From assembly GCA_010909165.1 (NCBI GenBank), contig VJWM01000313.1, positions 19,343 to 83,342 on the forward strand: DNA of 64,000 bases. The letters are read 5' to 3'. The notes beneath the pieces are model-generated. The model saw only the letters and a program-made list of their open reading frames with translations, searched no databases and had not been told where the DNA came from. The position numbers and the translations under genes are program-made. This document shows, one piece after another, positions 1 through 35,900 of the stretch (its first letter is position 1; every line of letters begins with the position of its first letter). Origin of the DNA: Anthoceros angustus. Its lineage: Eukaryota > Plantae > Anthocerotophyta.

Positions 1-1814
1 TCTAGCTCGTCCGTTAGTAGCCCGGTGGCGTGGATCTATCTACAAATCCATCTCCTGCCGCCCATCGCACGTTCTTGGCCGTTTGCATGCTCCTCCTCGA
101 CAATGATCTCTTCCATTCTGGTCTAGCCTCGTGTCTAGGTCCAGCTCGTGCTCCCATGGCGACCTCTTCGCCTTCACCTCCATGTCCTCCTCATGGTGAT
201 TTCCCATGAATCCATCTCCTTCTCCTGCGGTTTTCTTCAAACTTGTCATGGGATGCACCTCCTTCCTCTTGCCAACTCGTGGCCTCCACTTGCAGCCCTT
301 CTGCCTGCTCACCCTTGAGGAGCATTCCAGCCTCCTCCTCGCGCCCATGCTGGCGCCGTTTTATCTCCTCTCGGATTTCCAGATTGTCCTGCTGCAACTT
401 TTCCTGCACAACGCTCCCTTCTTGCTCATTTGGCCTCTCTGGCAACAAGACTTGCTGATCAATTCTTAGGCCGTCTACAACATGCTCACGTCCTCCCCCT
501 TCGACCCAGGCTGCGGCGACCAACTCCTCGTCAGGAAATCGGTCGTCTGTGGCCTCAAGTCGCTCCCGTTTTCAGACGAGAAATAAAATCAGCATTTTGA
601 TGCTGCTTCCCTGGCCTAGTTTCTACGTCGTAATCGAATTCTTGCAGCAGTAGTACCCATCTGGCAATCCTTCCTGACAAATCTGGCTTGTTGACAAGGT
701 ACTTCAACGCAAAATGGTCAACATGGAACGTCACTTTGCAAGCAAGCAGATAGTGTCTAAACTTCTTACAGGAGTAAATAATACCAAGACCCTCCGCTCC
801 GTGGTTGAGTAGTTCTTCTCAGCATCCGTGGGCTGTCTACGCATAGAAAATCGGATGATCCCGTTTCTTCTCGTCCTTCTGGCTTAAGACGGTCCCAATG
901 GCATAGGCGGACACATCCACGTATACGTGAAACGGTTTCTCCCAATCCGGCGGTTGTAACGTTGGTGCGCTCACTAAGCTGTCCTTCAGCTGCTGAAAAG
1001 CCTCCTGTCTTGCAGTTGTCCATTCGAAAGGTATATCCTTCTTGGTCAATTGTGTCAACAAGGCTGCCTTCTTAGCGAAATCCTTGATGAACCTCCTGTA
1101 ATATCCTACCAGTCCTACAAAAGCACGCACCTGTCTCACCGTTTGTGGCGTCCATCTCAGCTATAATTGCTACTTTCTCCTTATCCACCGCAACCCCCGT
1201 ACAGAGACCCGATGTGCTAACAAAATGCCCTCCGTCATACCAAAATAACACTTCCCCGGATGAAGTTTCATGTTCGACTCTGCATTTTGGAAACATTGTC
1301 TCAAATGATCTAAATCGGTCTCCTCCTTGAACAATCATCTAGGAATACCTCCATGAACTTCCTCGGAAAATCTCGGAATATCGCGTTCACTACCCTGAAA
1401 ATGGCGGGGCATTACACAACCCGAAGGGAGTTTTGAATAAGCGTAGGTTCCCCAATCCGTTGTGAATGTTGTCTTGTCACGATCTTCCTTCCAGCGAAAT
1501 TTGATTGTACCGAATATCCATCAAGATACATCTCATGTCAACTATGTCCACTGCTTGTCCATGAAAGGCAAAGGGTGATGATCCTTCTTCGCTCGTTGAG
1601 CTTCACGAAATCACAGCATACCGAACCTTTCCTGCTTCTTTGGTACAATCACGATGGTGCGACCCACTCTAGTGAGCACCGGGTAAATTACTCCGACCTC
1701 CAAATATTGGTCGCTGATCCTTAACGACCATGGAATACTTGGGGTTCAGTCTGTACTGCTTGATTCTCACCGGAGTGCTGCCCTCCTTCAAGTCGATTCG
1801 ATGTATCCTCAGTT
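1..1814 (-). mobile_element. Ty3/Gypsy pol fragment (copy A, left part): RT C-terminal half, RNase H and a charged post-RNase H linker
   Basis: ORF 837-1139(-) reads VRAFVGLVGYYRRFIKDFAK...FHVYVDVSAYAIGTVLSQ, and continues out of frame as KKFRHYLLACKVTFHVDHFALKYLVNKPDLSGRIARW. It is colinear with 30300-32100 and 54240-55960. It ends at 1814, where the TIR element begins. Confidence 0.93.
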
Positions 1815-1843
1815 AACATGATAATCTTGGAAGGGGGTTAATA
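1815..1843 (+). repeat. Left terminal inverted repeat of the MTase-carrying transposon
   Basis: Reverse complement of 10718-10745, apart from one substitution and one G-run length difference. Confidence 0.9.
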
Positions 1844-2439
1844 TACAAACCCCCTTCCGCACAACTGAAACCCCCTTCACAAAAAAGACACCGTTCGGGA
1901 AATGCAAAATCGTCGAATCCTCCGTCAACACCATGCTAAATACGAAAGGGAAAAAACATTGATATTTCACAATTCATAAAACAGGGCTTTCTTGGCGGCT
2001 GGCCGCTGCCAGTATCCTTGCGGCTATGCTTTGACACAAGTAATGAAAGAAAATCCGATATCAACTTTCAAAACCCTCTTCCGTCCCTCGAATATAGTCT
2101 TTCCTCTACAAAGATCCCTCAAAGTGATCACGAGACTCATCACGCTTGGGTGGCAATCTAAAACAAGCTGCCAGTTGCATGCGTTCAATTCTACTACATC
2201 GTCGGTCTCGGCCTTCGCTTCATCATCTTCGTTGTCGCCGTCCTTGTCGCCACCACTCCCGTCGCAGTATCCGAGGTTTGTTGTCCTTCCTCTAGCAAGT
2301 CCCCTTTGCGTTTTCATCCTCCTTGCACTAAGTGGAACCACGAGCTTTCGAACAATTTTTTTTTTAATACAAACTTCTTTAGCCGGTGTCGCTCCTCTCC
2401 GGTGGGCCTCGAATGTGAGCTCCTCTTTCCATCGCAAAA

Positions 2440-3050
2440 CCTCGAAACCATGTATGCGTTGTGGGATATAACCAGCATGAGGTCGGCCTCTATTGCAATA
2501 GAATTGCGTCGAAATCTTGCCGGTTGTTGTCCCACTTCCGCAACCATCCGTAATCCAATCTCCTTCTTTCGAGAATGTTTTGATGAATTTCATCATCAAC
2601 CCGAGAGGTCTTTGTAGGCACACCACCATTTTGTCTTGAGACATGTACACGCTTCTTCACCACGGATCATGTGCAATCACGGATCGTCCATTGTTAAAAG
2701 TCCCTCGTAATATTGGGCGCCTTCCGCCTTGCCTTCCTTCACACACCAAGCCACTGTTATGTACTCCACTGTCTCAAATCCACCCCTGTCATTACTCATG
2801 TTTGTTTTGTCCCAAAGCGAAGGACACCATTCCACCCTTGCCACATAATCCACGCATGCACTCTCTCACAAGGTGAGCTTCTTCCACTCCGTGCATGACA
2901 ATGAGCACAATTCTTCCGCCGTCGTCTTCTCCACAGCTTTGGAAGCTGTGTTCATCATGCGCATCGAACCGACTATCCATAGGACCAATGTCAAAGCCTC
3001 TTGGGACATCCATAAAGAAGGGTATAAGCCGCAGAAGGAATCCCGCATCT
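2440..3050 (-). pseudogene. Beta-class N4-cytosine/N6-adenine DNA methyltransferase-like domain (frameshifted as assembled)
   Basis: Motifs on the - strand in beta-class order: FFMDVPRGFD (motif IV position, 2996-3013); WDKTN...EYITVAW (2746-2814); QRPLGLMMKFIKTFSKEGDWITDGCGSGTT (motif X-I, 2525-2614); RNSIAIEAD (motif II, 2482-2508). An acidic tail (GDKDGDNEDDEAKAE) follows. Confidence 0.8.
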
Positions 3051-4139
3051 CCATAATGTTTCTTTTTCCACTTGATAGTAACACTCTTTCTCGGACCACG
3101 AGCGTGAACAAGTGCGGTCAGTCTTTCAAATCCTTGTCCGATTGCACGCTGCTCATCCTCAAGACTCTTCCAGTTGTTAATCTCAAATATGAAGTTCTTG
3201 AAATCCTCCGGCCTTTTGCAAATTCTCCACATCCTTTATTTCGACGCCGGAAAGAAAAACGTTAGAGCGAGGACACCACATTCCTATTGTATTCAAACAA
3301 GCGTTGGCGATGGCGAAGGAGGGTGTGAAAGCACGGCCGGCGCCCTTCACACCCTCCATCGACAAATTTGGTTTGCGGCTGCACCATGCCCGCGGCGGCC
3401 GGCCAGTAGAGCGGGCGAAGCCATACATGGGCGGCGGCGCCGTGACATGCGAACTGCGCATCCAAGATAGTGGGGGCGCGGCCGGCCGGCCTCCTCGCCA
3501 TTCTCCGGCGTGGCGAGGCGCGGCCGGCCAGCGGCGCCTCGCGCAAACGAAAACCAAAGCGACTCATTGTATGCGTGGTCGGATCTCACCTTCCCAAAAG
3601 CCGTTTGAAACCGAGCAATCATGTCGTCCGTTGAGTGTAGAGGATATTCCTTCCTCACTTCCTCGAAGATGAGCACTCGGATGTTTAGCCATGGCCACTT
3701 GAATAACATGCGGTTTCTTTCTTGAAGTAATTTCGTCCTCCATTCCTTTGAGATCGAGGATGCTCGATTACCTTCCCATTCTTGGTGACAAGAATCTGCA
3801 CATTCACCATCGTATACCGGAATGATTTCCGAGGTTTTAATGTCTTTCGGCTTGAAATACATTTTTCCACGTGTTTGGGATCATCTGTGACTTTCCTTTT
3901 CCCTTCCCTTTCTTCGGTGCCGGCGGTATGTGCTTCTTTCTGTAACTCGCTTCCCACTTTGAAAAGATCTTATCAATATTATCCCATACCTTGCCCTCCG
4001 CGATGCATGTGTGTGTCCTGTCCACTTTGTTACCTTGTACACGTCATCTTGGCCTTCATCATCTTCAATTAATCCAAGAACCTTATAAAGATTGAACTTC
4101 CATGACATGGTCATCTCACTCCATCCCGACGCCGAAGCT

Positions 4140-4400
4140 CATCTCGTAAATATCTTACATTCAATAAAAGACATTTTCTTCCGCTTATCGACATTGTGTT
4201 ATGGTCGGTTGCAAGAACTCTCATCTCGTGCACCGTAAGCCCACAGATACATGCGCTTCAACATATTGAAAGCAGGACTTCCGGAGCAATATCAAGTGCT
4301 TCATAGCGACATATGTGTGGTTCCCCAAGTACACCCATAATATATTTCTTGGCCCGAATTTAGCCAACTTGCTAATATCGTTGCACTCCCGGGTCAATCA
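4140..4400 (-). pseudogene. ParB/Sulfiredoxin-like domain upstream of, and probably fused to, the methyltransferase domain
   Basis: The - strand reads ILWVYLGNHTYVAMKHL (4293-4340; GNH motif in a helix-preceding position), then VSVGL...EMRVLATDHN...KMSFIE (4160-4245). This resembles the GL-x-E-x-LA-x-HN pattern of ParB-like domains. Same strand as the MTase motifs and about 1.1 kb 5' of them. Confidence 0.55.
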
Positions 4401-6898
4401 TGCATGAATGGCGAACCCTTCTTCAATCCTTCCCTTGAAATAACTCGGGCTAGGTAGTTTGACCATGCCTCGTCCACCCTCGATTTGGGCATCCGGTGTA
4501 ATAAAAGATCGGCTTCAAATTCTCAAGCTTTACCAAGTCTCTCGAACAACTTTCTTGGCATAGGCGAGTCCCCGATTATTGTCAATGGGTCCGATTCGGA
4601 TGGCATCTTCAAGTCTTTCCTCATCATCCGCATGGACGGTCGCTATATTCTCTGGTGGGCTTCACTCACGGTTTCCTTCCATTTCTTCTTTCTCTTCCCC
4701 GGTGGAGCCTCGCTATGTGTGGTATGCCCTGTGCGGCGTGCCCACCATGCCTTGCTCTCCACTCGAGTCCCTGTCTCCATACTCTCGGATCGGCGGACAC
4801 GGGAGGTGCCTCAATAGAAGCCGCGCACGCCGCCCACGCTCGGCCCGTCTCTTCCGCAACGCAAGTGCAAGGGCGTCGCAATCAGGCGGCCGGCGGCGCT
4901 TCAGTGCCTTGGGAACCCACCGGTTGGGGTGCAGTGTAGTCCAGACTCCCTCGGGAGGCGCCGGCGGCCGCCTCACCCTCTCCGACCGTACCTCCATGGA
5001 GGAGCCAGGAAAAGGAATGTCCAGAACGGAGCATCCTTCCATCCTCTCGCCTCGAAAGTCGTCATCGTCGGAGTGGCCAGGGCGTCGGGTATACACCCAT
5101 CCTCCTCATCGGATGGGCCGAGCTCACTAGGCACTGCGCTCGGCTTGGTGAGCCCGTCATGCACATTTCAGCCGGGCTCGACTCGTCGTTGTGACATTTC
5201 CCTCCTATCTTTGGATGACGGATTCGGTAATCTTCCGCATATTGTGTCGGTGCTCTAGCTTGAGCATCGCAAAACAAAAGGATTGAGGAAAGGCAAGATA
5301 GAAGGCACAAGTCATGGAAACCAACATATTTGCATCAAGCGCTTGAAAACCTTATTCCAAAGTTTTACTTATTGGGTGACGATAGCATTTCAATCCTCCA
5401 CCAGTTTGAAGGACTTCTTGCTTTGGAAGCCATGTAGGTGACCTCATAAGCCTTGTACATGGTTTCATCTTCGCTTATCCGATCAAATACCAAAGGCTTT
5501 GTTGTGCATCGAAAACAGCTCGTCCATCCATATCCACATCGCCCATAGAACCCGGCCCTTGCTCTGGTTTGGCAAGGCCCCTTGAACCCTCGACCCACGG
5601 TTTCAATAGAGGAGTCCAAAATTGTTCTCCTCAAGGCTCCTCATCCTGTGTCAACATCCGGTCCTTCTCGGCGAGCGCAGCCTCCACCTTGCTCCCCAAC
5701 CGACGTGTGGCATATCCTCATAGTTAAATGGCGTTGGAATAGGCCTGCATTGCTGTGGGGTCTCTTCCTCGGTCTCCTCCTGCCCTTCCCCGTTGTCTTG
5801 GCCTTCCCGGATGTTAGGATTTCCATGCCCAATTGACAAATTACCTCGGCTGGTGCTTGATGGCTGGGTTGTATCTGCGCCCTCCACCGAGGTAGGCGCG
5901 TGCCTTCTCCGACATCCACACAAATTCCCCGCATCCTTCTTCTTCTTCTGGGCCGGATTTCTTGGTTTTGGGCATCGGGTCGATGTTCTCTGGTTCTCCA
6001 CGTTCCTTCCCTCTTAGCTTGCCATCCTCAAGAGATTAGATACAATCGCCATAGGAAGCAATTCAAAGAAGGAATCGGTCCCAACAGGAAATTTGCGAGC
6101 GAAGGGGAGGGCCATCAGACTATGTGAATCGCGAGGAAATGGCGGAGGATCGCAGCGTGGAGAAGTCGCGTCTTTGGGAGACACGCCAAAAGTCCTTCTT
6201 GAGAGTTGATGTCGGGCCGCCACCGTCTCAGGCTGGAAGAACTTGCTCGGCTCTCTCGGGGTTACTCTCCACTTGAGCGAAAGTATGACGCCCCGTTGGT
6301 CACGTCACATGTCAACAACCTAACCATAAATGTCAATTAAGGAAATGCTTACATGGAAAACCATTTATAGGACCCTAAGTCAAAAGCCGTACATATGAAC
6401 CCCAATGCCGAGAAAACAATGAAGAGGCGGTGTGCCTCAGCCAAGTTCTACCGGTGAAGATCTTTCGGTTTATTTGCTCATAATGGCATTTCCACCTTAC
6501 CTTGATCCACTGCCTATGTCATGGCATACCACGCTCTGAAGAGTGAGGACCATATTTCCGGTTAGAGGTGCGAGTCCTCGGTGGCGACAATGTTGCGCCA
6601 CCCACATCGCTTGTCGAAGAGGTCGAGTTTTCGTCCACAAGTCATTCCTCACTTCGTTTGTGCGATCAAGGGGAACATGTACTTGAGAACAAGTGTTGGG
6701 TTTGCATCATCTCTCCGTCTGTTGATCCATGTAATGACATTGATGTTGTCGCGGAGCAGTGTGGAAGGGGTCTTTGATTTCCGGATGGTAGGTGACTCTC
6801 TTGTGAGGCCAAGGATGGTCAGATCTTGGGGGCCCCGATCATGAGCAACGAAACGAGTCCGAACTCCGGAAGGTTAGTTTGCCTTCAACGAAAGCGGC

Positions 6899-9800
6899 TT
6901 GTTTGCGGTGAAGACAATGTTGTGGCGAATAGTCCACCCCATCCGTGGCGATTCCATCTCATGCACACCGCACGGTATTGTAATGCTCGTCGCCATCGAC
7001 AAGCTCTCCGGCATTCCGCGTGGGGTGCCCATGACCCCCAGGAACTTGAACTTATATGCTGCCATTGATGGGAATCCTGCATCCAGGCGAAGACACCAGG
7101 AAGGAAGGGGAGATGGGGTGCAGAATTCCCGTCGTGGTTTGTTCCGCCAAGGAGCGATGTGCGAGGATGACCGCAGGACTGAGTTCTTCCCACAAGCAAA
7201 TGATCCGTGGACTGAGGATGGGGATGATGACTTTGTTCACCCTCCTCCGGCTGGTGCATCTGGAACATTCCATCCCAAGCCTTTAAGTGAGACATTGATG
7301 ACAACAAAGCTTTCTGGCGGACAAGCGCAGCGGCGACGGGCAGCGGGGGTGTCTTTGCAAAAATGTGAACTGGAGAAGGTGGCAGACTTTCTTAAACCGT
7401 GTTGCAACCAAATGTGCATGCAGAGGTTGACCAAGCAAGGCCTTGAGCAACGATATAGGTTCCTCACAATGCGAGGCAAGAGCAAGAGACATTTCTTCAA
7501 AGCCTCGTACATGGACCCGAGTCAAACTAACAAAGAAAGAGTTTTTCGCATGTTATGGGATCGGTTCCTCTGGTTGCGTGAAGGCCTTGAAGAGTATATT
7601 GTATAGCTGTGATACGAGGGAGGGTCATGAGGAATGCCCGTGGGATAGTGTTCGAACCAACCCAATTCATAAGTCCGTCATGCACTTGGTGCTCTAGCGT
7701 GGATGGATAATGCTCATTCATGGTGAAAGACTTCAACGTGCGGTGTATAACCGCACCTACAAAGCGGAGATATGGTCATTGTACAAAGCGGCGGTGTCAA
7801 AGCTCAGTGCGTTTGTGTGTCGCGGTTTTTGAAGTTATGGAAATCTAACTTCAGTGAAGATTCCCAAATCCAACAGTTCTCGACCGCTCAATATGTCTTG
7901 GGTTAAAGACCACCATTCGAATACAACTCAGGTTGATCAAGGTAGATATCACTACCACTAGTTGGAGTGGGAGGAGTTTTGGTATCATGGTTCGCTGGTG
8001 TGGCGGAGGGTGGGCGCCGGCCCGCGGCGCCACCCTCGGATATGACCGTTGCTGAAGTTGCACGAGTACCATGTTTGAAACTTGTCCTTGTTCATGGATG
8101 GCCCCCCGGTTGTAGGTTTGATTGGTCGAGTTTAGGGGCGGGCGGGCCCCGGCTGCGGCGCCACCCCATCCACCTTCAAACTCGCCAACCATAATATATG
8201 ACCTAGAAGGTGGACGTTTTGTAGATTTTAGATTGGGGAAGATGGTAAATGTATGTGTGAAGAGGTGATAGTCCACGACATCGGTTTGTTGTATGCAATG
8301 GGTTTCATGGATTACATCTTCGCTTGTGGTGTGGAAGAAGCGTGTTTGTATGTGTGAAATTGGGGAACGTGAAAAACTTGGAAGGATGTGACACTTGGAG
8401 CGTGTTTGGCGTGGCGGAAAAATATCGGGCGCGTTAGAGGCACAGCGTGCAGGAGGAGCGGGAAAAATGGCAAAACACCGTGAAAAGAGTTACGACCGGA
8501 TAAGTACATGCTCCTCGCTATAGACTCGGAATGGACCGAAGACCGAGATTCCACACTTTCGTTGGCCAAAGAATCTTGATGAGGACTGCCGTGTATCTGC
8601 ACGTAGTGGGTTGCATGATCCACAATTATACGCAGCAAGAGTGTTTTTGCACTATGCCAATTTGAGGAACGATGAATCGACAATCGATTATTCAAGATGT
8701 TATTCTTAATTATAAAGGAGTGCTACCCAAAGTGCTCTATTTGCAGCTTGACAACACTTGCCGGAAAACAAGAACCATGTTGTTTGCGTGTTTGAACATG
8801 CTAGTTGATATGGGAACTTTTCAAGGTGAAGGTTGGGTTCCTCCTTGTTGGGCACACTCACGACCAAATCGACCAAATGTTCTCTTGCTTTTCCAAAAGC
8901 TTGAAGCACAAGGCACACACTCTTCCCGCGTTGGCGACATCGTTCATGCATACACGCCTACCGAGATCAAAGTTTTGCGGAGGTCCGGACTTCCGGTCAT
9001 ATGTATGGCCGATTAGACAAGGCGATGGTCGCGGGCATATTCATCGGCGGTGAGAAAATTGAACAACTTATCTTTCCAGCACTTTAAAATCACCAGAGAA
9101 GACAAACCGAATGGTATGGTGATGATTAGGCAAGCAATATTCGACATCGATGTATTGGGAAACCGGCCGGGTTGGAGTTTTTGAAATTTGTCCCTCCGAC
9201 ATAACCGATGCGGTGTCGGCCCTCCGGCTCGAGACAAGAAAGGGACGTCGGCGGTTATCTCCGACGGAGTGGCACATTTGAGAGCGGGTCAGCCGGGCTG
9301 CCATATGTGACCGGACAGAATATGGATGGTGGGAAGCATTCAGGTGGACCAAGAAGAAATCGCAATAATCGTGGAGAACAACATTGGGCTCGCACTAGAA
9401 GTGCCGTGGAAATGGTTCTCTCTAATCGGAAGAAAGCAACCACTCCAAGTTCCTGAAGCTATCCTAGAGGCGTTGCTAAGAGAACTCCCCAGGATATGTA
9501 CTTAGGGCCTTACCGGCTTGGAAGGCAGCGGCGAAATGGCACGTTGCATGGAGATGTAAAAGACATAAAGGAAGGATGTTCATCGCAGTACCTTGTACGA
9601 TACGCATAATCGGCCTTTCCGGATTGGGAAAGTTAATCGGTGAGGTTGGATGTGGAAGAGCCTCATTTCCGTTCAAATGGGCGAAACACGATGCATATGA
9701 AGGCGAACGTGGAAGAATATGTGATTCGGACCCTTCCACCGAGACAATTTGGATTGGAAGGAAAAGGGTGGGAAGGCAAATTTCAAGAATGTTCAAGAAG

Positions 9801-9950
9801 TCTTCATCAATAAAACCGTCATCTTGTATTATGGGTTCGGTTTGAATTCCGTAAACATCTCTATTCCATTGACAAAAAGCGATCGAGGATAAGTTGAATG
9901 AATTGCGGGGCTTCATCGAGCCACCAAAGTGCACCGGAAGATAGTGACGA
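6899..9950 (+). pseudogene. Sola-like (DUF7869-type, RNase H-fold) transposase, frameshifted as assembled
   Basis: Ordered motifs: KPCCNQMCMQRL (7394-7429); GCVKA (7572-7586); FLKLWKSNF..VKIPKSN...SICLGLK (7830-7908); KHREKS..DKYMLLAID.GMD..TEIPHF (8474-8555); LPKVLYLQLDNTC (8723-8761); VGFLLVGHTHDQIDQMFS (8832-8885). A C-terminal GMFIAV...RPF(W)IGKV...VILYYGF...LTK segment follows (9570-9880). Confidence 0.82.
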
Positions 9951-10717
9951 AGGCGGTGAGGACATCGGGCCCTTGGACATGGAAGGTGTCAATTCGGAGA
10001 TGAGTGAAAAGATGTGAAGTGGAGGCAAACATCGGTGGACATCGGTGACAAGAGGGTTTACTCTCGTCAGTGTCTTGACCGCCAAGTGTTAGGCTCAAAG
10101 TGGGAGCTCGCGTTAGTGATAGGGAATCACTGGTGCTATCATTCGGTGGAAGTTGAAGAAGTTGAGTCACTTCCGGCCGTAGGTTGCGATGTCGGCGACA
10201 AGGACAAATGGCGGCGCGGTGGGCGGCGCCACGCCATCCTTTAGTAGCATGGAAACCGCTTTTCCGCACCGATCCCGTATTGTACATTTTGTTCGCACAT
10301 ATATAACCCATCCGGCATGCCTAAATCCTAAATCGTGGAAACCCGATAGCTGGGCGCCGGCCCGGCGCCACCTTCTTGCCAAAACAAAAGACTATGGGTT
10401 CGGGGACGGTTCGGAAAGAAGCACCATTCTTTACCAATGATGTGAAGATTGGCAATGTCTTCAAAAGACCTTGTTTATTTAGGCGGCCTCAACAACCCGT
10501 TCCCTTTTAGTCCTTAGGGTACTTATGGTAAGCAAGCATGGGTCGTAATATGCCAAATTCGATGGCGAACTCGCTAACCCTTTGTGTGATGGAACCGCTC
10601 GGACGTCAATTTCATCCCTTATCGACCCTTATTTTCAGGCCTTTCGACCGATGTTGCAAAGCGTAATCGACCCATCCCAAACCCCTTCCGGCGATATTTG
10701 GTTGAAAACCCCTTACG

Positions 10718-10745
10718 TATTAACCCCTTCCAAGATTAGCATGTT
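10718..10745 (-). repeat. Right terminal inverted repeat of the MTase-carrying transposon
   Basis: TATTAACCCCTTCCAAGATTAGCATGTT, followed directly by resumed Gypsy RT sequence. Confidence 0.9.
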
Positions 10746-11260
10746 GGTTCTTCAGGTATTCTGTCATCTATCGGTAATTTTGAAGGCACACATCGACATA
10801 TTCCCTAAACTACTAAACTCTTCTTTCTCTACGCCTAGATACCTGAAACCTTGACTGCCTTACCATGCTCTAACTCTAAATCCTCTACGACATACGGGAT
10901 CTCGTATATCGCCGGTACTACTGTCTTGGTCCCGGATCCCTCCTCGGGAAAATCCACGATCATAAGCTTACCTCTTCCAAAAGGCTACTCGCTCTCTATG
11001 TGCCTGTCTTGACTCTCCCTCGACATCCTCACGTTGCAAGCATGAATACTCCAAATCAACTTTTATTTGACAGCCTCGGTGAAGGTCCCGATAAGCTCGG
11101 TCGAGTGCAGGAGCTTACCTCAGAGTGCTACGGTGTAACCATCAGTGGAGTGCAGAACTCCCCTCATAGGGAGCCTTGCTCCATGACACAAAGCGATTAC
11201 CGCAGTCCTACCTATTAGACTTGAAGGTGACGCCCGCTACGATAAAATCAAAGAACACAT
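10746..11260 (-). mobile_element. Ty3/Gypsy copy A, middle part (protease-RT spacer and RT N-terminus)
   Basis: Nucleotide-colinear with 32060-32560, e.g. GGAGCCTTGCTCCATGACACAAAGCGAT occurs in both. It is bounded by the TIR element on the left and the solo LTR on the right. Confidence 0.85.
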
Positions 11261-21600: not shown

Positions 21601-21936
21601 ACGCTACCTTCTCCTTAGAGCCTCGTTTGTTTTGCCCTTCGCTCTTGCTCTAATTGGGCAAAAGTGCTCCTCATATACATCTCCATGAGTCCCTTTGGGT
21701 TGTTGAATCTCTTTCTCTTTGACAACCTTCCCTCCGGACCTTCTCCATGGCGCGTTGATCCACAATCGGCTGAGCTTCTCTGACCTTCTCCAACTTGGCT
21801 GCCTTCTCGTCGGACTCCATGGCTTCAATTGCCACTTGGTCCTGCTTTCCTCCCATGTCTTGGGCTTTCACTTCTTCTTGGCATGCCCACAAGGCTGCTA
21901 GCTCCTAGCCCCTTCAAAATCCACATGGTGAGTGCT

Positions 21937-24900
21937 TGTAAGGTATTAAAGCCCAAGACTAATACACTTAGTCTAAGTTAGGTGTCGATTAAGTATCATT
22001 AGTTTAGCTTAAGCTAATCACTAGGAAGCTTCTTGTGCTCCTTCCTAGGAGCTTCTTGTGGAGCTTCTAGGAGCTATTGGAGGTATAAATACCTCCAAGC
22101 CTCATCTCAATGTGAGAGCTACTCTTGCCTCCTCCTCTCCTCTCCTCTTTCCACCATGGCGCCACCATCCTTCAACCGGTATCGAGCCATGGTTTGGTTG
22201 TGTTGTGATGCTAGAATTTTCTAGTGCAGGCGGTGACTCGTGGAATTGCGTGATCCAGATCGCGGTGGGTGACGCGCGGCGAGCGTGGCGGGCGGGCCGT
22301 GGCGCGACGCGAGCGAGCGGCAGGCGCGTGGCCGTCGGGCCTTGGCGCGAGCGCGCGCAGCCGGCCGCGGGGCGGCGCGCGGGCGCGGCGCGGCGGAGCG
22401 CGGGCGCGGCGCGGCTGGCAGCGGGGCGTGCGGGCGCGGCGCCCGCGCCGCCAGAGGCCGCAGCCCAGGCGCGGCGCCCGCGCGCGCCCGCGAGCCCTGA
22501 GCCCGCGCCCGCGCGCTGGCGCGCGGCGCCGGCCCAGCGGCCGAGGCGCCGGCCGCGGGCGCGGCCGAGCGCCCCGCAGGGCCCATGGCCGGCGCCGGCC
22601 AGCGGCTGAGCCCGCGGCGCCGCCCGCAGCGCGGCGCGCAGCCGCGGCGCTGCAGGCGCGGCGCTGGCCACCCGCGCAAGCGGGCGGCCAGCGCGCGCCG
22701 GCCGCGAGGTGCGCGTGGCGGTGGTGGCCGCGGCGGGCCGTCGGCGGCGCGGTGGCGCGCGGCGTGCGCGGCGGTGGCGTGCAGCAGCGGGCGCGAGGCA
22801 GTGCAGCGCGGGGCGGTGAGCGGTGTCGAAAATTTATTCGGCGGAATACTCAGGTGGAATAGTCAACGGCAAAATACACGGACCGCACGGTGACTGTTTT
22901 CTTCTTTGACTTTTCTGACAAGGCGAGTCGAGTGTTTTATCTGTATCGATTTTTGAGTCATGATGTCTTCATCATCAGAAAACGTCATGTTCAATATCGA
23001 GAAGTTAGATGGTACTAACTTCCCGTTCTGGAAAGAACAAGTGTATAATGTTCTAGTGCAGAAAAAGCAGATCAAGCCCATAAAGTTGTTAGGCGTCAAA
23101 CCAGATAGTATGACACAGGATGAGTGGCAGGACCTGGATGAGCTTGCTAGATCTACTATCATGCTAACATGGTTAAAAACGGTGTAGTTCAATGTGAAAG
23201 ATAAGACCACAAGTTACGGTGTGGCGGTATGTGACTGTGAGAAGCAAAGTGCGGCTTCTCGGTGTATTGGTTGAAACAGCTGGTGGACTTGAAGATGAAG
23301 GAAGGGACGAGGATGTCCGATCATCGAATGATTTCAATACCATTTTCAGCCACTCTCATCTCAAGGTATCACGTTCCCGTTAGTGAGAGCTATGTTTATT
23401 GGTCACATTACGGGAGTTGGGACACCTTCGTAAACTCGAGTAATTACACTTTGCTAGTGGTCTTACCATTGTAAATGTAGAAGGTAGCACGTGGCGAGGA
23501 GGTGAGCATGGAACATGGTTCCGGTGCCCTCATAGGAGGGAGGTCCAGCGGACAGCTTTCTCTGCAAATCTAGTCGTAACAAGAATGTGGAGTGTCACTA
23601 TTGTCACAAAGGGTCACTTCAAAGAGAGTGCGAGAAGTTCAAAAGGACCAAGGAAAAGAGAAGCGGGGACAAGGCGACTTAAATGCATCGAGTTGGAAGA
23701 GTTAAACTACGTTGAGGACGGAGATGTCCTTATCTCTTCTTACTTGAATCTTTGCACAATTAACGGCCGTGGATAGTCATTTATTACGCAATTGGATAAT
23801 TGACTCGGTGCATCTTTCCATGTTACTCCGCGAGAGTGGTTTAACACGTATGATGCTACAAGGAAAGGATGCGTTAGGCTTGGAAATAACTATGCATGCG
23901 GATCGCGTGGGTGATGTGCAACTCAAGTTTGACAACGGATCTTCATTCATCTGAAGGGCGTTAGGCATGTTCGAAGTTGACAAGAGCATGATTAGCGCGG
24001 GGCGGTTGGATGATCTTTGGTTACCACCTTGGTTTGGGGATCACTCTTGGAAGATCTCCAAAGGTTCTCTTGTGTTAGCTCGTGGATCGAAGTGTGGCAC
24101 TTTGTACTCACTTGAGTAAACATCAAAGATCATGTGATCGTGAGCAAATGTTTCCTTGTGGCATTGCGGTTAGGACATATGTCTCGAGAAGGGAATGAAG
24201 GTTTTATCTCGTTACGGTTATATCCTGTTAACTTCTCGATCTCTCGATGTGTGAGCACTGTTTATATGGGAAGCAGACAAAATCATCACATCGAACAAAG
24301 GTAAAAGTAGGGTAAACCTCTTGAGTTGGTTCACGTGATGTATGTGGACCTATGCTCACAGCATCATTAGGCGGTGCCTCTTATTTTGTCACTTTCATAG
24401 ATGATTTCTCACGCAAGGTGTGGGTTTATCCTTTGAGGAAAAAGGATGAAGTTCGGCGGTGTTTGAAATTTGTCACCCTTGTAGAGAATCGGTCGCCACC
24501 GATTGAAGTGTCTAAGGGGAGATAATGGTGGAGTATGTTTGAAAGCTTTCCGGTCATTCGTGATTCCAAGGAATCGAGAATTATGCGTATCTCCTCCACA
24601 AAATGGTGTGGTGGCGGATGAAACCCATTCGGAGAGGATGCGTAGTTTGTTGTCAAACTCGGATTGCCTAATGGGTTTTGGGCGACGGTGTCTCTGCAGT
24701 TCATCTTATTAACATCTCCTAATAAAATTTGATGAGTTCGAGCTATGGAAAGAAACCATCCTACAAGCATCTGCGAGTGTTTGGGTACATGAGGCATCAT
24801 GTTCCAAAAGAGTTTCGGGACAAGTTGGCACCTAAGTCCAAGAAATGTATTTTTCTTGGCTATGGTGATTCGGTGAGATGGGATACGTTTGTGGGATCCG

Positions 24901-26873
24901 AGGCTAGAAAGGTTGTTATTTCGACGTGTTCTTCAATGAGAACAAGATGCAAGCCTACTCCAAGCGTGGAGGTGCGAAGGGTGATCTTCCAAGAAGATGG
25001 ACATGATCATCATGGCGGTTGATAGCATGGTAATGTGTGAGCACATTCCTCCGATAGATGAACCAAGAGTCGAACAAGCACCTATAGGTGCATGCTTCGT
25101 GGGTCGAGATTACACGACCTCACGGGTATGATCCATCTCGGATTATGTTATCGGATTGTGGGGAACCCTCTTCTTACAAAGAGGCTCATGTCGGTAACAA
25201 AGAGAAGTGGGAGAAGGCCATCGAAATGAATTGCATAAGAACCAAACTTGGGAGTTGGTTGTTGCCTAAGGATAAGAAGGCACTACCTGCAAATGGGTGT
25301 ACAAGATGAAGGTCATACCGATGGCAAACCAAAGTACAAGTTGGTTGCTAAGGGTTTCAAGCAACAACCGCATTGACTTTGATGAGATTTTCTCACCGTA
25401 GTCAAAATGACAACTTTGCGATGTGTTCTTGCTTTGGTTGCGAGGATGATATGGAACTTATGCGGATGGATGTCAAGGGCATTCTTGCATGGTGACCTTC
25501 AAGAGGACGTCTACATGCAACGAAGGTTTTGTTGAGAAGGGCAAAGAATCGGTGTGCGAGTTGAGGAAGAGCCTTTATGGTTTGAAGCAGGCGAGTGGTA
25601 TCACAAGTTCCACTCATTTATGCTTTCTCAAGGCTACAAGCGTAGCGATGAGGATCATTGCCTCTATCTGAAGCAAGCTAAGGATCAAAGCTTGCTCATT
25701 TTGATCCTCTATGTGGATGATATGCTAATTCGCGATCTTGATGATTTGTTGAAGTCAAAGTTGAATGCTCACTTTGAAATAAGACTTGGGAGGCGAGCCA
25801 TATACTTGGCATGCGTATTCGGAGCAGACATAAGCGTCACTTTATTTGTCTCGACGGAATACGTGCTTCAACGTTTCAACATGGAGAAGGGAAGCCATTG
25901 GGTACTCCATTGCCTCCATATGTGAAACTTTCAAGCGCGGATTGCCCAAGCTACGAGGAGGACAAAGTGAAATGGAGAAGGTCCCATACTCATCGGTGTA
26001 GGGAGTTTGATGTATGCAATGATTGCTACGTCCGACATTGCCTTTGCGGTGGGAGTGGTTAGCGGTTTATGTCAAACGGCAAGAAGCATTGGGAGGCGAT
26101 AAAAGGAGTTATGAGGTATCGAATGGTACAAAAGCTTTGTGCATATGTTTTGGTAGTGAAGATGCATGTGGTTGGGTACGAGATCGATTATCACGGATAT
26201 GGACAAAGGTCCACATCAGTTATGTCTTCATTGCTTGGAGGCGATCTCATGGCGATCTCGTTTGCGATCGTGCATTCGCTATCTACCAGGCCGAGTATGT
26301 TGCAAGCGAGGCTTGCAAGGAAGCCATATGGCTTTCGTTTAGTGGAGACTTGGGGATCAAGGTTGGGTGTTGCATTGTGATAGCAGTGCTATCAATTGGC
26401 AAAGAATCCGATGTTTCATGCGAAGACTAAACATGTGGATGTGAAGTATCACTTCATTCGAGAGGTGTTGGATGACGAGGGTACAACTTGTCAAGGTTCA
26501 CACCGGCGAACCTGCGATATTCTTACCAAGGGACTCTCTACGACAATTTGCACAAGCTCGGACGATGGGCATGAGATAGTCCATTCTCCTGAAGGTAAAT
26601 TGGCCTTTAAGTGGGAGGTTGTAAGGGTATTAAAGCCCAATGTACTTAGACTAATACACTTAGTCTAAGTTAGGTGTCGATTAAGTATCATTAGTTTAGC
26701 TTAAGCTAATCACTAGGAAGCTTCTTGTGCTCCTTCCTAGCTTCTTGTGGAGCTTCCTAGGGAGCCTATTGGAGGTATAAATACCCTCCAAGCCTCATCT
26801 CAATGTGAGAGCTACTCTTGCCTCCTCCTCTCCTCTCCTCTTTCCCACCATGGCTGCCCACGATCCTGCTTCA
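21937..26873 (+). mobile_element. Full-length Ty1/Copia retrotransposon (Tnt1/Tork-like), 4.9 kb, frameshifted as assembled
   Basis: LTRs at 21937-22174 and 26620-about 26873. PBS CGGTATCGAGCC (iMet-like) at 22177-22188; PPT AAGTGGGAG at 26609-26617. Protein motifs: gag KLDGTNFPFWKEQ; integrase YFVTFIDDFSRKVWVY; RT KKSLYGLKQA and LYVDDMLI; RNH AKNPMFHAKTKHVDVKYHFIRE. Left TSD GTGCT at 21932-21936, right copy partly visible as TGCT; the empty site is at about 39768-39785. Confidence 0.93.
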
Positions 26874-30300: not shown

Positions 30301-30849
30301 TCCTCACCTCCGTCCGTTAGTAGCTCCGGATGGCGTGGATCCATCTCCCATCGCCTCTTGCTTCCATGCACATTCCTCGCTGCGGCCCGTTTCTCCTCCT
30401 AACAGCTGATTTCTTCCATTCTGCTGGTCTAGCCTCGTCTAGGTCCAGCTCGTGCTTCCATGGCGACCTCTTCCTTTTGCCTCCATGGTCCTCTTGGAGT
30501 GATTTCCCTGAATCATACCTCCTTCTCTGCAATTTTCAAACTTGTCATGGGATGCATCTCCTTCCTCGCCCTCTGGCGCACCACCTCCTAGGGCCTTCTC
30601 CTCCTCGCGGCCCATGGCGCTGCGCCAAGTGGGGCCTTCCGTCGCTCAGCGGTGCTCTCATGTCTTGCCTCCTTGCCAACGTGGCCTCCACTTGCAGCCC
30701 TCCGCTCACCCTTGATTCAGCCTCCTCCTTGCGCCCATGCTGGCGCCATCCTATCTCGGTTCCAGTTCTGCTGCGGCTTTTCTCACAACGCTCCCTTCTT
30801 GCTCATTTGGCCTCTGCGGCAACAAGACTTGCTGATTCTTAGGCCGTCT

Positions 30850-32100
30850 ACAACATGCTCGTCCTCCCCTTGACCCGGGTGGCGACCAACTCCTCGTCGA
30901 AATCGATCATCGTGGCCTCAAGTCGCTCTCCGGTTTTGAGAAATCAATTCGATGTTGCTTCCACCTAGTCTACGTCGTAGTCAAACTCTTGCAGCGGTAG
31001 TACCCATCGGCAATCCTTCACGACAAATCGGCTTGTTGACAAGATACTTCACGCAAAATGGTCAACATGAAGCGTCACCTTGCAAGCAAGCGATAGTGTC
31101 TAAACTTCTTACGAGTAAATGATACCAAGACCTCTCCGCTCCGTGGTTGAGTAGTTCTTTTCGGTCGTGACATCTACATAGAAAATCGGATGATCCGTTT
31201 CTTCTCGTCCTTAAAGCGGTCCCAATGGCATAGCGGACACATCCGTATACATGAAGCTCCGGTCTGGCGGTAAAGTTGGTGCGCTCAAGCTGTCCTTCTG
31301 AAAAGCCTCTGTCTTGCATTGGTCCATTCGAAGGTGTATCCTTCTTGGTCAATTGTGTCAACAAGGCTGCCTTCTTGGCGAAATCCTTGATGAACCTCTG
31401 TAATATCCTACCCACACAAAAGCCTTTTGCCTCACCGTTTGTGGTGCGTCCATCTCATATGCTACCTTCTCCTTATCTACCAATCCTCGTCTGACTCGAT
31501 GTGCTAACAAAATGCCCTCCGTCATGCCAAAATAACACTTCCCGGATGAAGTTTCATGTTCGACTCTGCATTTGAAACATTGCCTCAAATGGTCTAGATG
31601 CGTTCTCCTCCAAACACGAAATCATCGGAATACCTCCATGAACTTCCTCGGAAAATCTCGGAATATCGCGTTCACCACTGGAAAGTGGCGGGGCATTACA
31701 CAACCGAAGGGCTTGAATAGCGTAAGTTCCCCAATCCGTTGTGAGCGTTGTCTTGTCGATCCTCCTCCTTGCAGTTGATTGTACCGATATCCGAAACACA
31801 TCTCCAGCTCATGTCCACACCTGTCCATGAAAGGTAAAGGTGATGATCCTTCTTCGTTGCTTCATTGAGCTTCACGAAATCTTGACACGAACCTTTCCTG
31901 CTTCTTTGGTACAATCACGATGTGCGACCCACTCGTGAGCGGATAAATCACCCGCCTCCAAATATTGGTCGGTGATCCTTAACAACCATGGAATACTTGG
32001 GATTCGATGTATTGCTTGATCCTCATGTCTTGCCCTCCTTCAATCGATTCGATGTATCCCAGTTCTTCCGGTATTCCTGTCATGTCGGTAATCTTGAAGG
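30850..32100 (-). pseudogene. Gypsy B reverse transcriptase and RNase H
   Basis: KTTLTTDWGTYA; FIKDFAKKAALLTQLTKKD. Colinear with copies A and C. Confidence 0.85.
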
Positions 32101-33099
32101 CAAACACATCGACATACTCTAAAGCACTCTGAAACTCTTCTTTCTATCTCCTAGGTACTAGAAAATCTTGACTACCTTGCTAGGTTCTAACTCTAGGTCT
32201 TCTCGCATGGGATCTACATATGTTCCTTGGGCTGCTACCTATCATTCGGATCCCTCTTAAAAATCTCGATCATAAGCTTACCCTTCCAAAAGGCTACTCC
32301 TTCTATGCCTCATCTTGACTCTTCTATGACTTCTCTATGTAAGCAGGTACACCAAATCACTCTTTATTTGACCTCGGTGACCCGATGCTCGATCCTTTGC
32401 AGGAGCTTACCCGTGCTACAGGGTGTACCCATCGGTGGGTTGCGGACTCCCCTCATAAGGAGCCTTGCTCCATGACACAAAGCGATCGCCGCGGTCCGTT
32501 CTGGACTTGAAGGTGATGCCACTCGACCAAAATCAAAAACACACGCGTACCATACAACCAAGGCCTACCTATCAAAACCTTATAGCCTAAATCCGAACCG
32601 CATCACAATGTAGGTAAGATGGAAGGTGAGTCCCCAATCGTGGGTACATTCTTCACCCCCAGTGGCTTTCTCCTTATGCCATCCGTAAAAATACTCGGGC
32701 GGGTGAAACTCGGTGAACCCAAGTTGATGAGTCTCCTCCGTCATCAAGTTGACTCCGATCCGAATCTAATGGCACGTCGGGCACCAAACACCGCAATTTC
32801 AACCTCAATCTCGGGTGCCCCAAATCAATGAGTTCGACCACATTTACTCCAGGCCGTTTCTCCCTCCCCACTTGCTTGATTCCGATCGCCTCCTTCACAA
32901 TTTTGCGGGATCTCGGACTCACAGCAGCAAGTGACCACAAATTCGCGGTCAAGTAATGCGTCGTGGCGATTTATCGACAAGGTTTCCTCCCGCTTGCAGC
33001 CACAGCTGGTCGATTCCGACCTTATTGGTAAAGTTCCCATGATCCCCTTGGGACCCCTACCGGCGGATCAACACGGCTCTCCGCCCGCTTTTGTCGGGT

Positions 33100-35900
33100 G
33101 AGCTTTAGCTCATCTTCCGGCCGCCCGCCGCGGTCGAGGAGCGGTTCGTTCCTCTCCTCCTTGGCCTTCCACCGCCCTTGGGGTCCCAGTAGTGCCGGCA
33201 GTGATCTGCCCTTGGTGGGTGGGCTCCGCTCCTTCTCACGCTTGACGCGCGCGTCTCGAGGCCAGGTGAGTCGTCCTCACCTTCCTCCGCTTCCTTTCCT
33301 CTGTTCACGCCGTTTTCCGCGCGGCCTTTCTCTCGGCTTGATCGGTGGTCACCTTGGCCACCATCAACCTTCATCCGCTCATCTCTCCTTCATACCCCTC
33401 TTCCACGATCCACGATGTCTGCTGGATCCAGGAATCATCCTCCACCTTCGGGGTGGTAGTCGCATGATTCGGGTTGGGCTTCTCTTCACTGCGGCTCGTG
33501 AACACGACTCTGGTCTGGTGTCACTCGCGTCACCCGCACAGGATCCCCATTTTATGTCCCAATTCCATACACGGCAAAGGGTACATAACCACTTGCCGTG
33601 GTTACGGGCATTCATTTGAGTAGTGACGGTGCTCGCAATTATAACAACACCACTGGAATCGCCGCCCGGTGCGATGGATCGGTCTCCATTGTCCTGGCGA
33701 TGTCGGTCGCGATCCATACCTTGAGGCGGTGTCGGTTGGTCGCCCTCATTGATTGAGGTGGCCGACTTCGGTGACGCTTGCACTGGTAGCTTCATCCACA
33801 TACCAATAATCTCCGGCATGACGGTTTCCACATGATTTACCGCATGTCGTGGTGCGAATACATTCCTTGGTGTGTCCGTTTGATGACAAAAAGCAATACA
33901 CCAAGCGCCCGTGAGGAGATCTTCGTGGAGCTTGATTCTTCACGCTTGACCTCTAACTCGGTCAATCTCTTGGTCAAAGCCTCCACTTGTCCGCAATCCC
34001 TCCTCTGCTGCAGACGTTTCTCCCTTCTCCATCCAACGGACCGTCTTCCCCTCTCCTTCTCCAATCGCGTTCCGCCTCTTCTTGTCCTTTTGACCTTCTC
34101 CGGGTCCTTCTTCATTTCGTTCGTAGGCCTTCTCGATTCCTCATCCGATGTGGAGCTTTCTTGAGTTCACTGTCCTCACTTTGATGAGGAGGCGATGGAG
34201 GAGGTGGGGAAGACGAGGAGCTAGATCTCCTCGATCCTTTCCTCTTCTTATGACTTCGCCTCTTCTTCTTCTCCTCCCCAACTCGGCGGACTCCCATTCC
34301 TCGGCTAAGCGGAGGCCCTTACGTCTTCGTCCCGCTGCGGTGTACCTCCATTTTCGCGACAAGCCACTCACAAACCAATCCAGCGCTTGTGAGTACCAGG
34401 TGGTGGATCTCCGGCCTCTCGGGTGCACATTTGAACTCGATCCGGATATCCATAAAACCTCTCCACATAATCAAACAAAGATCTCGTTTCTTCCTGAAGG
34501 GTCTCAACTTTGCCAAAGTGTGGTGTGCGTGAGCCCTCGGAACCGATTCAAGAAATGCTTGAGAGCTTCCCAATGGCGCACCGAATTATAGGTGCGACCA
34601 TACCCTTGTGCATGCCCTCTCGGTCCGGAAGATCGTGATCGATCGACTCCATCCTCCAAATTGCGTGGAGCTCGAAAGTTCTTACAAGCCTCGCGTCATC
34701 TCCCTTCTTCTTCGCGAATTTGACGTATTCTTTGGCGACTATGAAGTTCCTCCTCCTCCACCAACTCCACTCATGTTGCTCGGTGTCCTGCCAACACTCT
34801 TCTCCGGGGTAAGAAACATCGGGATCCTTGAGTCGAAATCTTCTACCAGCGAGGAGTAGCGACCTCCCTCTGGTTCGTCCCAGATCAAGATCGAGATTCG
34901 ATCGAGTCGTTCCGCCAAATCCTCGACCAAGCACGAAATTCCCGCTGGCGACCTGTCGTCCTGTCGATTTGGAAGATGAGGGGTGGTCTCACCGCTTTGA
35001 GAAGCAAAGCGTCGCGGGCGTTCGCGGTTGAACTCGTGCTCGGGAGGCGCCCCTTCCTTCTTTGGACACCTTCTCTTCTCGACCTCCTTCCTCTCGGCCG
35101 GTGATCTCGCCTCTTCTTCCTCCTTCTCATCCGTTCGCTCCGCGCGAGTCGGCGACTCCATCCTCCAATTAGCGTGGGAGGCGTGCTCGAAAGTTCTTAC
35201 AGCGCCTCCATCTCCCTTCTTCTTCTCGAATTTGACGTATTCTTTGGAGGAATGGCGGTCCTCCTCCTCACCAACTCCACTCATGTTGCTCGCGTTGCTG
35301 CCCCAACTTCTTCTTCCCGAGGAAAGCAGATCGGGATCCTTTGAGCGAAATCTTGACCAGCGGAGTAGCGACCTCCCTTGTGGTTCGTCCCAAAATCAAT
35401 TGATCGATTCGATCGACGTTCCAAATCCTCCGACCAGCACGAAATTCCCGCTCACGGCGACCTCGTCGTCGGTCGATTCATTTGGGGTGGTCTCACCGCT
35501 TTGAGAAGCAAAGCGTCGTGGCGTTCCGGCGTGCGGGTGAGTCGTGCTCGGGAGGCGCCTTCCTCGCTGGACACCAATTCTCTTCGACCTCCTTCCTCTA
35601 CCGGTGATCTCGCCTCTTCCTCCAATTTCTCCGTCCGTTCACCTCCGCCTTTCACAGGCGACTTCTTCCGATCGCTTTCTCTACTTCCTCCTGCGCTCGG
35701 TAGCGGCGGTGACTCTTCCCTTGATTTCTTAGGCTCGTAAATCTCTTGCGGTGACGGTGGTGACCTCTGCGTGTATCTCGAGATCGACCCTACGACATCG
35801 CAACCATCCTCATGTCCTCCAACCCACAGTGTTAAGAAGGAAGCAAACCACACCCCTTTGTCTCAACCATTCACCCCTATGACAACTTAGGCGTGGAATT
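33100..35900 (-). pseudogene. Gypsy B gag region, with an internal tandem duplication of about 0.5 kb (about 34645-35150 / 35155-35640)
   Basis: Cys/His clusters VYCF...GHTKEC...TCGKSCGNRH (about 33820-33900) and WLCTLC (about 33570-33590); Arg/Ser/Glu-rich tracts. The blocks CTCCATCCTCCAA...GCTTTGAGAAGCAAAGCGTCG occur twice. Confidence 0.6.

What the first reader, a model, noticed from the sequence alone, without database searches (positions are those of the whole stretch)
2440..3050. Methyltransferase motifs are in beta-class order but the catalytic motif reads DVPR, not DPPY
The order motif IV, then W-x-K...E-Y, then Q-(K/R)-P, then the GxG SAM loop (DGCGSGTT), then RNSIAIEAD is the beta-class permutation. 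The D at motif IV is more typical of N6-adenine than of N4-cytosine (SPPY) enzymes. The aromatic residue that stacks the flipped base is replaced by R (codon AGA, not at a CWG site). This copy may be inactive, the family may have diverged, or the domain may serve as a SAM-dependent binding module.
Basis: partly seen in the sequence, partly recalled or inferred. Interest (0 to 1): 0.75.

Follow-up and report, generated by a model that had tools for sequence, protein, structure and literature searches.

The report
Transposon methylase with altered active site
A jumping gene in this plant-like genome carries a bacterial-style DNA-methylase domain in which the base-gripping tyrosine, kept in all ten close relatives that show this spot, is replaced by arginine, so this version likely still binds its cofactor and its own DNA but likely no longer marks DNA.

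Summary
DVPR (3010-2999, minus strand) is motif IV of a beta-class amino-methyltransferase domain. The domain is the tail of a ParB-like + methylase gene inside an 8.9-kb Sola1-type DNA transposon (1815-10745; 28/29-bp inverted ends; DUF7869 transposase on the other strand) that sits in a Ty3 element. Relatives found through the transposase read DIPY in 10 of 10 close loci that cover the motif, with varying synonymous codons; 1 distant relative reads DSMY. So arginine is not the family consensus. It is unlikely to be a read error: 2-3 edits separate it from an aromatic codon. The gene's frameshifts, by contrast, likely are read errors at CWG sites. Contigs of one public run suggest the SAM loop is DGCAGSGTT and motif VIII is CPYQRP; they do not cover DVPR. 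Best reading: a lineage-level, catalytically impaired, SAM-binding accessory domain; an active variant is not excluded. The ParB-methylase/Sola1 design is published for Ectocarpus, and this scan already noted it elsewhere in this genome and, with a dead motif, in two other windows.

The parts
1811..1814 (.). Left target-site copy, AGTT
   Evidence: Matches GGTT at 10746-10749 at 3 of 4; the uninterrupted Ty3 copy near 32060 has one AGTT. A 2-bp TT duplication is an alternative reading.
1815..1843 (+). Left terminal inverted repeat, starts AACATG
   Evidence: 1 mismatch and 1 gap in 29 columns against the right end; I3
2447..3041 (-). Beta-class amino-methyltransferase domain, in several frames
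   Evidence: Frameshift-aware alignment to relatives, score 84.1 vs control max 40.7, 10 frameshifts; 5-14 frameshifts at penalties 8-14 where the alignment spans motif IV
2999..3010 (-). Motif IV, D-V-P-R (relatives D-I-P-Y); preceded by Y-T-L-L at 3026-3015 and followed by G-F
2761..2814 (-). W-D-K and E-Y, matching W-V-K and E-(L/Y) of relatives
2606..2614 (-). Motif VIII Q-R-P (relatives N-P-Y-Q-K-P); a loose end of run X1 at 2614 reads C-P-Y in frame before it
   Evidence: tables 3, 4, 7 (loose end read by hand)
2525..2548 (-). SAM-binding motif I, D-G-C-G-S-G-T-T in the window, likely D-G-C-A-G-S-G-T-T
2482..2508 (-). R-N-S-I-A-I-E-A-D, matching R-N-C-I-S-L-E-K-D of relatives
3234..3589 (-). 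Likely intron (GT...AG) between ParB-side exons and the methylase exon; holds 6 of the element's 7 CGGCCGGC words
   Evidence: Splice signals; relatives break their frames in the same part of the gene; word positions. Inferred, no RNA.
3951..4411 (-). ParB-like part of the same gene (L-G-N-H-T against G-G-S-H-S of relatives)
   Evidence: Alignment score 115 vs control max 41.2 of 16; the L016 exon matches ParB_N clusters by predicted structure, TM 0.53-0.61
8438..9844 (+). DUF7869 (Sola1-type) transposase gene, core part
   Evidence: Pfam PF25273 E 9e-14 and 2.7e-6; alignment to 14 relatives score 416 vs control max 41.5 of 6, 175 of 442 identical, 27 frameshifts, 1 stop
10718..10745 (-). Right terminal inverted repeat, ends CATGTT
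10746..10749 (.). Right target-site copy, GGTT
262..1814 (-). Ty3/gypsy pol region interrupted by the element; it resumes at 10747-11259
   Evidence: Self-comparison: 268-1814 matches 30672-32064, 10747-11259 matches 32062-32543

Best explanation
DVPR is the catalytic motif of a beta-class DNA-methylase domain at the end of a ParB-like accessory gene inside a Sola1-type transposon, and in this lineage the domain has likely become a catalytically impaired module that would still bind SAM and help the protein grip the element's own DNA. Shown: the element, the two-gene layout, the motif order, and Tyr in close relatives against Arg here. Inferred: Arg is shared by this genome's family rather than private to this copy; loss of the aromatic ring that stacks the flipped base, together with Lys-to-Arg in Q-K-P, removes or much reduces methyl transfer; the intact SAM half and ParB part let the protein act as a DNA-binding or scaffolding partner of the transposase. 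The DIPY relatives are likely N6-adenine methylases that mark their own element.
For: DVPR pairs with DIPY in all 12 of 15 penalty settings that reach the motif, and in all 4 of 15 that reach it when the motif itself is given no score; no setting put anything else there. 10 of 10 close loci covering the motif read ADIPYGF with varied synonymous codons, exon identity 49-98% among the 7 aligned. The window motif is 3 edits from Tyr or Phe, 2 from Trp; 0 of 299 AGA triplets in aligned repeat copies of the window stood opposite a Tyr, Phe or Trp triplet (some pairs counted in both directions). The copy looks young (TIRs 28/29; 75 of 161 laid contigs 99%+ alike), so 2-3 changes in one codon fit a lineage better than one copy. 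Run X1 lists no other letter at the Q-R-P codons, at depth above 200. A distant relative, L076, also has a worn motif IV (DSMY) with Q-K-P and motif I kept. In CcrM the motif IV Tyr stacks the target adenine and Lys193 contacts N7 (PMC6787082 passage; that Lys193 is the Q-K-P lysine is my inference).
Against: Only one copy of motif IV from this genome was seen; run X1 gave no cover there, so 'lineage-wide' is not shown. D, P and the main-chain groups that activate the amino group remain. In RlmJ the motif IV Tyr does not stack the base and another aromatic does (PMC3814359 passages); here motif VIII offers a Tyr (N-P-Y-Q-K-P in relatives, C-P-Y-Q-R-P in X1). The ten DIPY loci are not independent: their names suggest one data series, and two pairs are near-identical. 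The window is error-rich. No activity, SAM binding or expression is shown for any member. No repeat array that ParB could bind stood above chance in this element.
Confidence: 0.5

Rival explanations
1. This one copy is mutated; active copies of the family in this genome have an aromatic residue and methylate adenine like the DIPY relatives likely do.
For: The close relatives are uniformly DIPY. Only one copy of the motif was seen. Transposon copies decay.
Against: 2-3 changes in one codon are needed in a copy with near-identical ends and only 1 stop in 442 aligned transposase codons.
Confidence: 0.2
2. DVPR is an active variant: Arg packs on the flipped base by cation-pi contact, the Tyr of P-Y-Q-R-P covers the other face, and the enzyme still methylates adenine or cytosine, perhaps with a changed target.
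For: D, P, G-F, W-x-K, E-Y, motif I and the I-E-x-D strand are kept. RlmJ shows that stacking can move to another residue. Two Arg changes in the base pocket could be a matched pair.
Against: The published consensus needs Y/F/W at this place. I know of no beta-class enzyme with Arg here (recalled; not searched directly). Motif IV is also worn in L076 in a different way, which fits relaxed selection.
Confidence: 0.2
3. The arginine is a base-calling or assembly error in an error-rich long-read sequence.
For: CAG/CTG is depleted (o/e 0.42 in the element) without TAG excess (0.86), and gaps between repeat copies pile up at CWG (0.43-0.67 vs 0.22-0.31 in four of five pairs). The gene has about 10 frameshifts, one just upstream at 3014.
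Against: The errors seen are mostly 1-3-base losses at CWG. The frame runs unbroken through M-D-V-P-R-G-F. 0 of 299 AGA triplets stood opposite an aromatic triplet. One or two errors could give K or E, also non-aromatic.
Confidence: 0.08

Closest known systems
Sola1-1_Ec32 of Ectocarpus (PMC12477816; passages and supplement rows seen; figures and protein sequence not seen)
   Same: Sola1 element with a gene on the strand opposite to the transposase that joins a ParB-like domain to an N4C/N6A methylase domain; termini begin AAC; 4-bp target duplication.
   Different: 21.5 kb with 282-bp TIRs in a brown alga, against 8.9 kb with 29-bp TIRs in a plant-like genome. The passages give no motif IV sequence and no activity. 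Direct sequence relation to this gene not tested.
Prokaryotic beta-class amino-methyltransferases (CcrM, M.RsrI, M.MboIIA, M1.HpyAVI, M.PvuII)
   Same: Motif IV before motif I; profile of 6 spliced relatives vs 82 phage enzymes, hhalign probability 96%, E 3.7e-9, 211 columns; model of L076 matches these structures best.
   Different: Introns, ParB-like N-terminal part, transposon cargo; here Arg at the aromatic position and Q-R-P for Q-K-P.
MpDN4MT1a/b of Marchantia (10.1101/2021.02.12.428880, passages) and bdelloid N4CMT (PMC8885841, PMC10406627, passages)
   Same: Beta-class amino-methylases of bacterial origin in eukaryotes.
   Different: Host genes with (T)SPPY and shown N4-cytosine activity; no ParB part; this family has D at motif IV and rides in a transposon. 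Sequence relation not tested.
Inactive methylase domains of DIRS1 retrotransposons and METTL14 (PMC4738411, passages)
   Same: Methylase fold kept with a disrupted active site; proposed binding or partner role.
   Different: DIRS1 domain is of the PCIF1 group in a retroelement polyprotein; METTL14 is an MT-A70 RNA-methylase partner.
Plavaka PAG2/PAG3 of Bostrychia (10.1101/2025.02.11.637652, passages)
   Same: Transposon accessory genes with a putative N6-adenine methylase and with a ParB-like domain, proposed to bind and modify their own element.
   Different: EnSpm/Plavaka superfamily; methylase is joined to SET and ParB to a 2OG oxygenase, in separate genes.

Membership tests
Beta-class DNA amino-methyltransferase (PF01555) | Motif IV N-terminal to SAM-binding motif I | tested here: met
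Beta-class DNA amino-methyltransferase (PF01555) | Profile similarity across the domain | tested here: met
   Window piece E 0.0024, below cut-off; relatives' exons 33.9-42.1 bits, above the 26.7 cut-off; hhalign E 3.7e-9; window to relatives
Beta-class DNA amino-methyltransferase (PF01555) | Motif IV (D/N/S)-P-P-(Y/F/W) with an aromatic fourth residue | tested here: not met
   D-V-P-R in the window; met in 10 of 10 close relatives as DIPY. Hence filed as a variant, not as a working member.
Beta-class DNA amino-methyltransferase (PF01555) | SAM-binding motif I and acidic residue after the next strand | tested here: met
   D-G-C-(A)-G-S-G-T-T and I-E-A-D
Beta-class DNA amino-methyltransferase (PF01555) | Permuted Rossmann fold | tested here: inconclusive
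   Window protein itself not folded (in pieces). L076 model pLDDT 54, pTM 0.52, best hits all beta-class enzymes, E 2.4e-6, but its alignment was made of phage beta-class rows, so partly circular.
Beta-class DNA amino-methyltransferase (PF01555) | Transfers a methyl group to N6-adenine or N4-cytosine | not testable with these tools
   Needs an assay
N4-cytosine methylases of the DN4MT1/N4CMT kind | Ser in motif IV (SPPY) | tested here: not met
   Asp in the window and in all 11 relatives covering the motif
Sola1 DNA transposon | Sola1-type DDD/E transposase | tested here: inconclusive
   DUF7869 hit and acidic residues in A-I-D, L-D-N, H-D-Q-I-D; no named Sola1 protein was available to compare. 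Equating DUF7869 with Sola1 is recalled and follows the scan's earlier notes.
Sola1 DNA transposon | Terminal inverted repeats | tested here: met
   28/29 columns; relatives L023, L040, L076 also begin AACA; Ectocarpus element begins AACCG
Sola1 DNA transposon | 4-bp target-site duplication | tested here: inconclusive
   AGTT/GGTT, 3 of 4, one site only; empty site has one AGTT
ParB-like + methylase accessory gene of Sola1 elements | ParB-like domain in the same gene, on the strand opposite to the transposase | tested here: met
   splicing into one mRNA is inferred

The most novel reading that the evidence does not exclude
DVPR is a working active site of a new type: a plant transposon lineage has rebuilt the base pocket of a bacterial-type methylase with two arginines and a tyrosine from motif VIII, and uses it to write N6-adenine or N4-cytosine marks on its own DNA, while sister lineages use canonical DIPY and others have switched the enzyme off, making this family a natural series of active, altered and dead transposon-borne writers.
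Probability: 0.15. Interest if true: 0.8.

Novelty: new variant of a known kind. Interest (0 to 1): 0.4.

Why it matters
The odd motif itself most likely marks an impaired enzyme. The useful result is the family: intron-bearing Sola1-type elements in eukaryote contigs whose methylase keeps a full DIPY site under apparent purifying selection, beside lineages with DVPR or DSMY. That gives matched proteins to test the open proposal (PMC12477816) that such accessory proteins bind and mark their own transposon, and whether 6mA on plant transposons can come from the transposons themselves. It also warns that frameshifts in this assembly are largely read errors at CWG sites, so 'broken gene' calls here are unsafe.

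Tried and rejected
Word-based protein searches with the piece holding DVPR and the ParB piece found nothing; the full HMMER search gave 1 hit, a repetitive protein, rejected as spurious. These blanks are weak, since the DVPR query was partly in the wrong frame. ESM Atlas on that piece: top score 0.78, no lead. Pattern scans with it in metagenomes and with the transposase in viral and prokaryote contigs were empty. The relatives' motif IV exon found no viral relative and 1 weak prokaryote match, E 1e-5, not followed. No whole genome is held, so other copies could not be read. Run search: no RNA holder listed; run X2 laid 0 contigs; run X1 has no cover at 2866-3753 or 2831-3100, not used as evidence. 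Fold of the half-domain exon of L016: pLDDT 59, no match in either structure search. PDB sequence searches with window pieces and with relatives' exons gave no beta-class hit. I first read a 6-residue deletion before DVPR; rejected once the Y-T-L-L frame was found. The tally of phage motif IV words (81 of 82 aromatic) is not evidence, as the filter asked for an aromatic. A palindrome array in this element: top 8-mer 7 copies, equal to the maximum of 30 simulations; 39 palindromes vs simulated max 42. PMC8514461 (passages) did not state that CHG methylation causes nanopore deletions; that link is my inference plus recall of CCWGG errors.

Full report
Observation. DVPR is GAT GTC CCA AGA at 3010-2999. 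The piece 2656-2516 hits Pfam N6_N4_Mtase weakly (E 0.0024) and, by tblastn, 305 phage records whose best rows are mostly annotated as DNA methylases.

Setting. A self-comparison shows that 1815-10745 interrupts a Ty3 pol region that is continuous in the copy at 30672-32543. The insertion has inverted ends, AACATG...CATGTT, with 1 mismatch and 1 gap in 29 columns, and flanks AGTT and GGTT where the empty site has one AGTT. On the plus strand lies a DUF7869 gene. No genome is held; the host is plant-like by its retrotransposons, introns and CWG pattern (inference).

Finding relatives. Direct searches with the DVPR piece failed. 17 of the 80 carry a part of the same accessory gene, 14 of the 20 that are 6 kb or longer. 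They show a ParB-like exon and three methylase exons, in most loci on the strand opposite to the transposase. L023, L040 and L076 have inverted ends beginning AACA. The relatives' methylase exons pass the Pfam PF01555 cut-off; a profile of 6 spliced relatives aligns to 82 phage beta-class enzymes with probability 96%, E 3.7e-9; the L016 ParB exon matches ParB_N clusters by predicted structure. A model of the intronless relative L076 (pLDDT 54) matches M.BceJIV, M1.HpyAVI, M.RsrI, CcrM, M.PvuII and N4CMT best, with the caveat that phage rows filled its alignment.

The window against the family. Frameshift-aware alignment gives: methylase 3041-2482, score 84.1 vs control max 40.7 of 105; ParB part 4411-3951, 115 vs 41.2 of 16; transposase 8438-9844, 416 vs 41.5 of 6. 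Y-T-L-L-x-M-D-V-P-R-G-F lines up with Y-S-L-M-I-A-D-I-P-Y-G-F in every setting that reaches it (12 of 15; 4 of 15 with the motif unscored). All 10 close loci that cover the motif read ADIPYGF, with GAC/GAT, ATC/ATA/ATT, CCG/CCA/CCC and TAT/TAC codons, which points to purifying selection. They are not independent: L040/L044 and L032/L036 are near-identical in protein and the names suggest one data series. L076 reads FDSMY.

Is the sequence trustworthy? Not in its indels. CAG/CTG is at 0.42 of expectation in the element with TAG at 0.86, and gaps between repeat copies gather at CWG in four of five pairs; the changes there are mostly losses of 1-3 bases. The transposase has 27 frameshifts but 1 stop in 442 codons, which fits read errors better than decay (inference). 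Contigs of run X1 restore bases at some breaks: 2 bases at 2538 and a loose end at 2614 that reads D-K-L-V-V-C-P-Y in frame with Q-R-P. The gene may therefore be intact in the cell. The arginine is another matter: it needs 3 edits to be Tyr or Phe and 2 to be Trp, and 0 of 299 AGA triplets in aligned repeat copies faced such a triplet. X1 does not cover the motif.

Mechanism. In beta-class enzymes the Asp side chain and the main chain of the next residues hold and activate the target amino group, and the Tyr ring stacks the flipped base (PMC6787082, PMC10406627, PMC3814359 passages). DVPR keeps the first and loses the second; Q-K-P has become Q-R-P, with no other letter listed in X1. The SAM half is whole. 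Since 2-3 changes in one codon are unlikely in a single young copy, and since motif IV is also worn in L076 while its SAM half is kept, I take a lineage-level impaired domain that still binds SAM and works with the ParB part on the element's DNA as most likely (0.5). A private mutation (0.2), an active variant using Arg and the motif VIII Tyr (0.2; RlmJ shows that stacking can move) and a read error (0.08) remain. None of binding, activity or expression is shown.

What is known. The design, ParB-like plus N4C/N6A methylase opposite a Sola1 transposase, with AAC termini and 4-bp duplication, is described for Ectocarpus Sola1-1_Ec32 (PMC12477816; passages and supplement rows), which cites similar proteins in green and red algae. 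Inactive methylase domains in transposons are known from DIRS1 (PMC4738411 passages). I found no paper on land-plant-type members or on a DVPR motif in the listings; this library lacks most subscription papers and Repbase. The scan's own notes report the same design twice elsewhere in this genome and a version lacking the catalytic motif in two windows elsewhere; these are unchecked AI notes, and they gave me the Ectocarpus lead.

Verdict. Real feature, correctly seen; a new variant of a known kind. Interest 0.4.

Noticed in passing
whole window, e.g. 30672-32064 against 268-1814 and 54233-55924: CWG triplets are lost by small deletions in some repeat copies but not in others (CAG o/e 0.50 vs 0.96 and 0.82; copia at 50796-53325 0.95). 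If these are base-calling errors at methylated sites, the assembly itself maps which copies carry CHG methylation.
   Followed up: partly
window 45117-46702 / 46702-48361; 37203-38347 / 38342-39476; 34644-35143 / 35153-35648: Adjacent tandem duplicates at 80-83% identity with more gaps than mismatches in the two pairs aligned; possibly assembly stutter rather than real duplications.
   Followed up: partly
L076 (8616 bp): Apparently complete element with 28-bp AACACA ends, an intronless 929-codon ParB-like + methylase frame with DSMY at motif IV, and an 8-mer repeated 36 times (simulated max 7), a candidate binding array for the ParB part.
   Followed up: partly
L032: DIPY-type element with an 8-mer repeated 14 times (simulated max 7).
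   Followed up: no
L013:230-3485: Here the accessory gene lies on the same strand as the transposase, unlike most other loci.
   Followed up: no
L016:2563-4314: The ParB-like exon resembles fungal DUF3723 (PF12520) clusters in the ESM Atlas (score 0.95-0.96), hinting that DUF3723 is a related ParB-like transposon protein.
   Followed up: no
window 3334-3540, 4880-4985, 8010-8165, 10340-10370: Short GC-rich clusters with GGCCGG/GGCGCC words inside the element, mostly in likely introns; not above chance by whole-element counts.
   Followed up: partly
window 9916-10320 (-): Open frame with a weak C2H2 zinc-finger hit (E 0.023) near the right end of the element.
   Followed up: no
window 22000-22900: A 70% GC island with several overlapping open frames; 21928-22171 recurs at 26611-26867.
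   Followed up: no
window 4660-6400 (-): Long upstream part of the accessory gene region, not aligned; relatives have about 240 codons before the ParB part.
   Followed up: no
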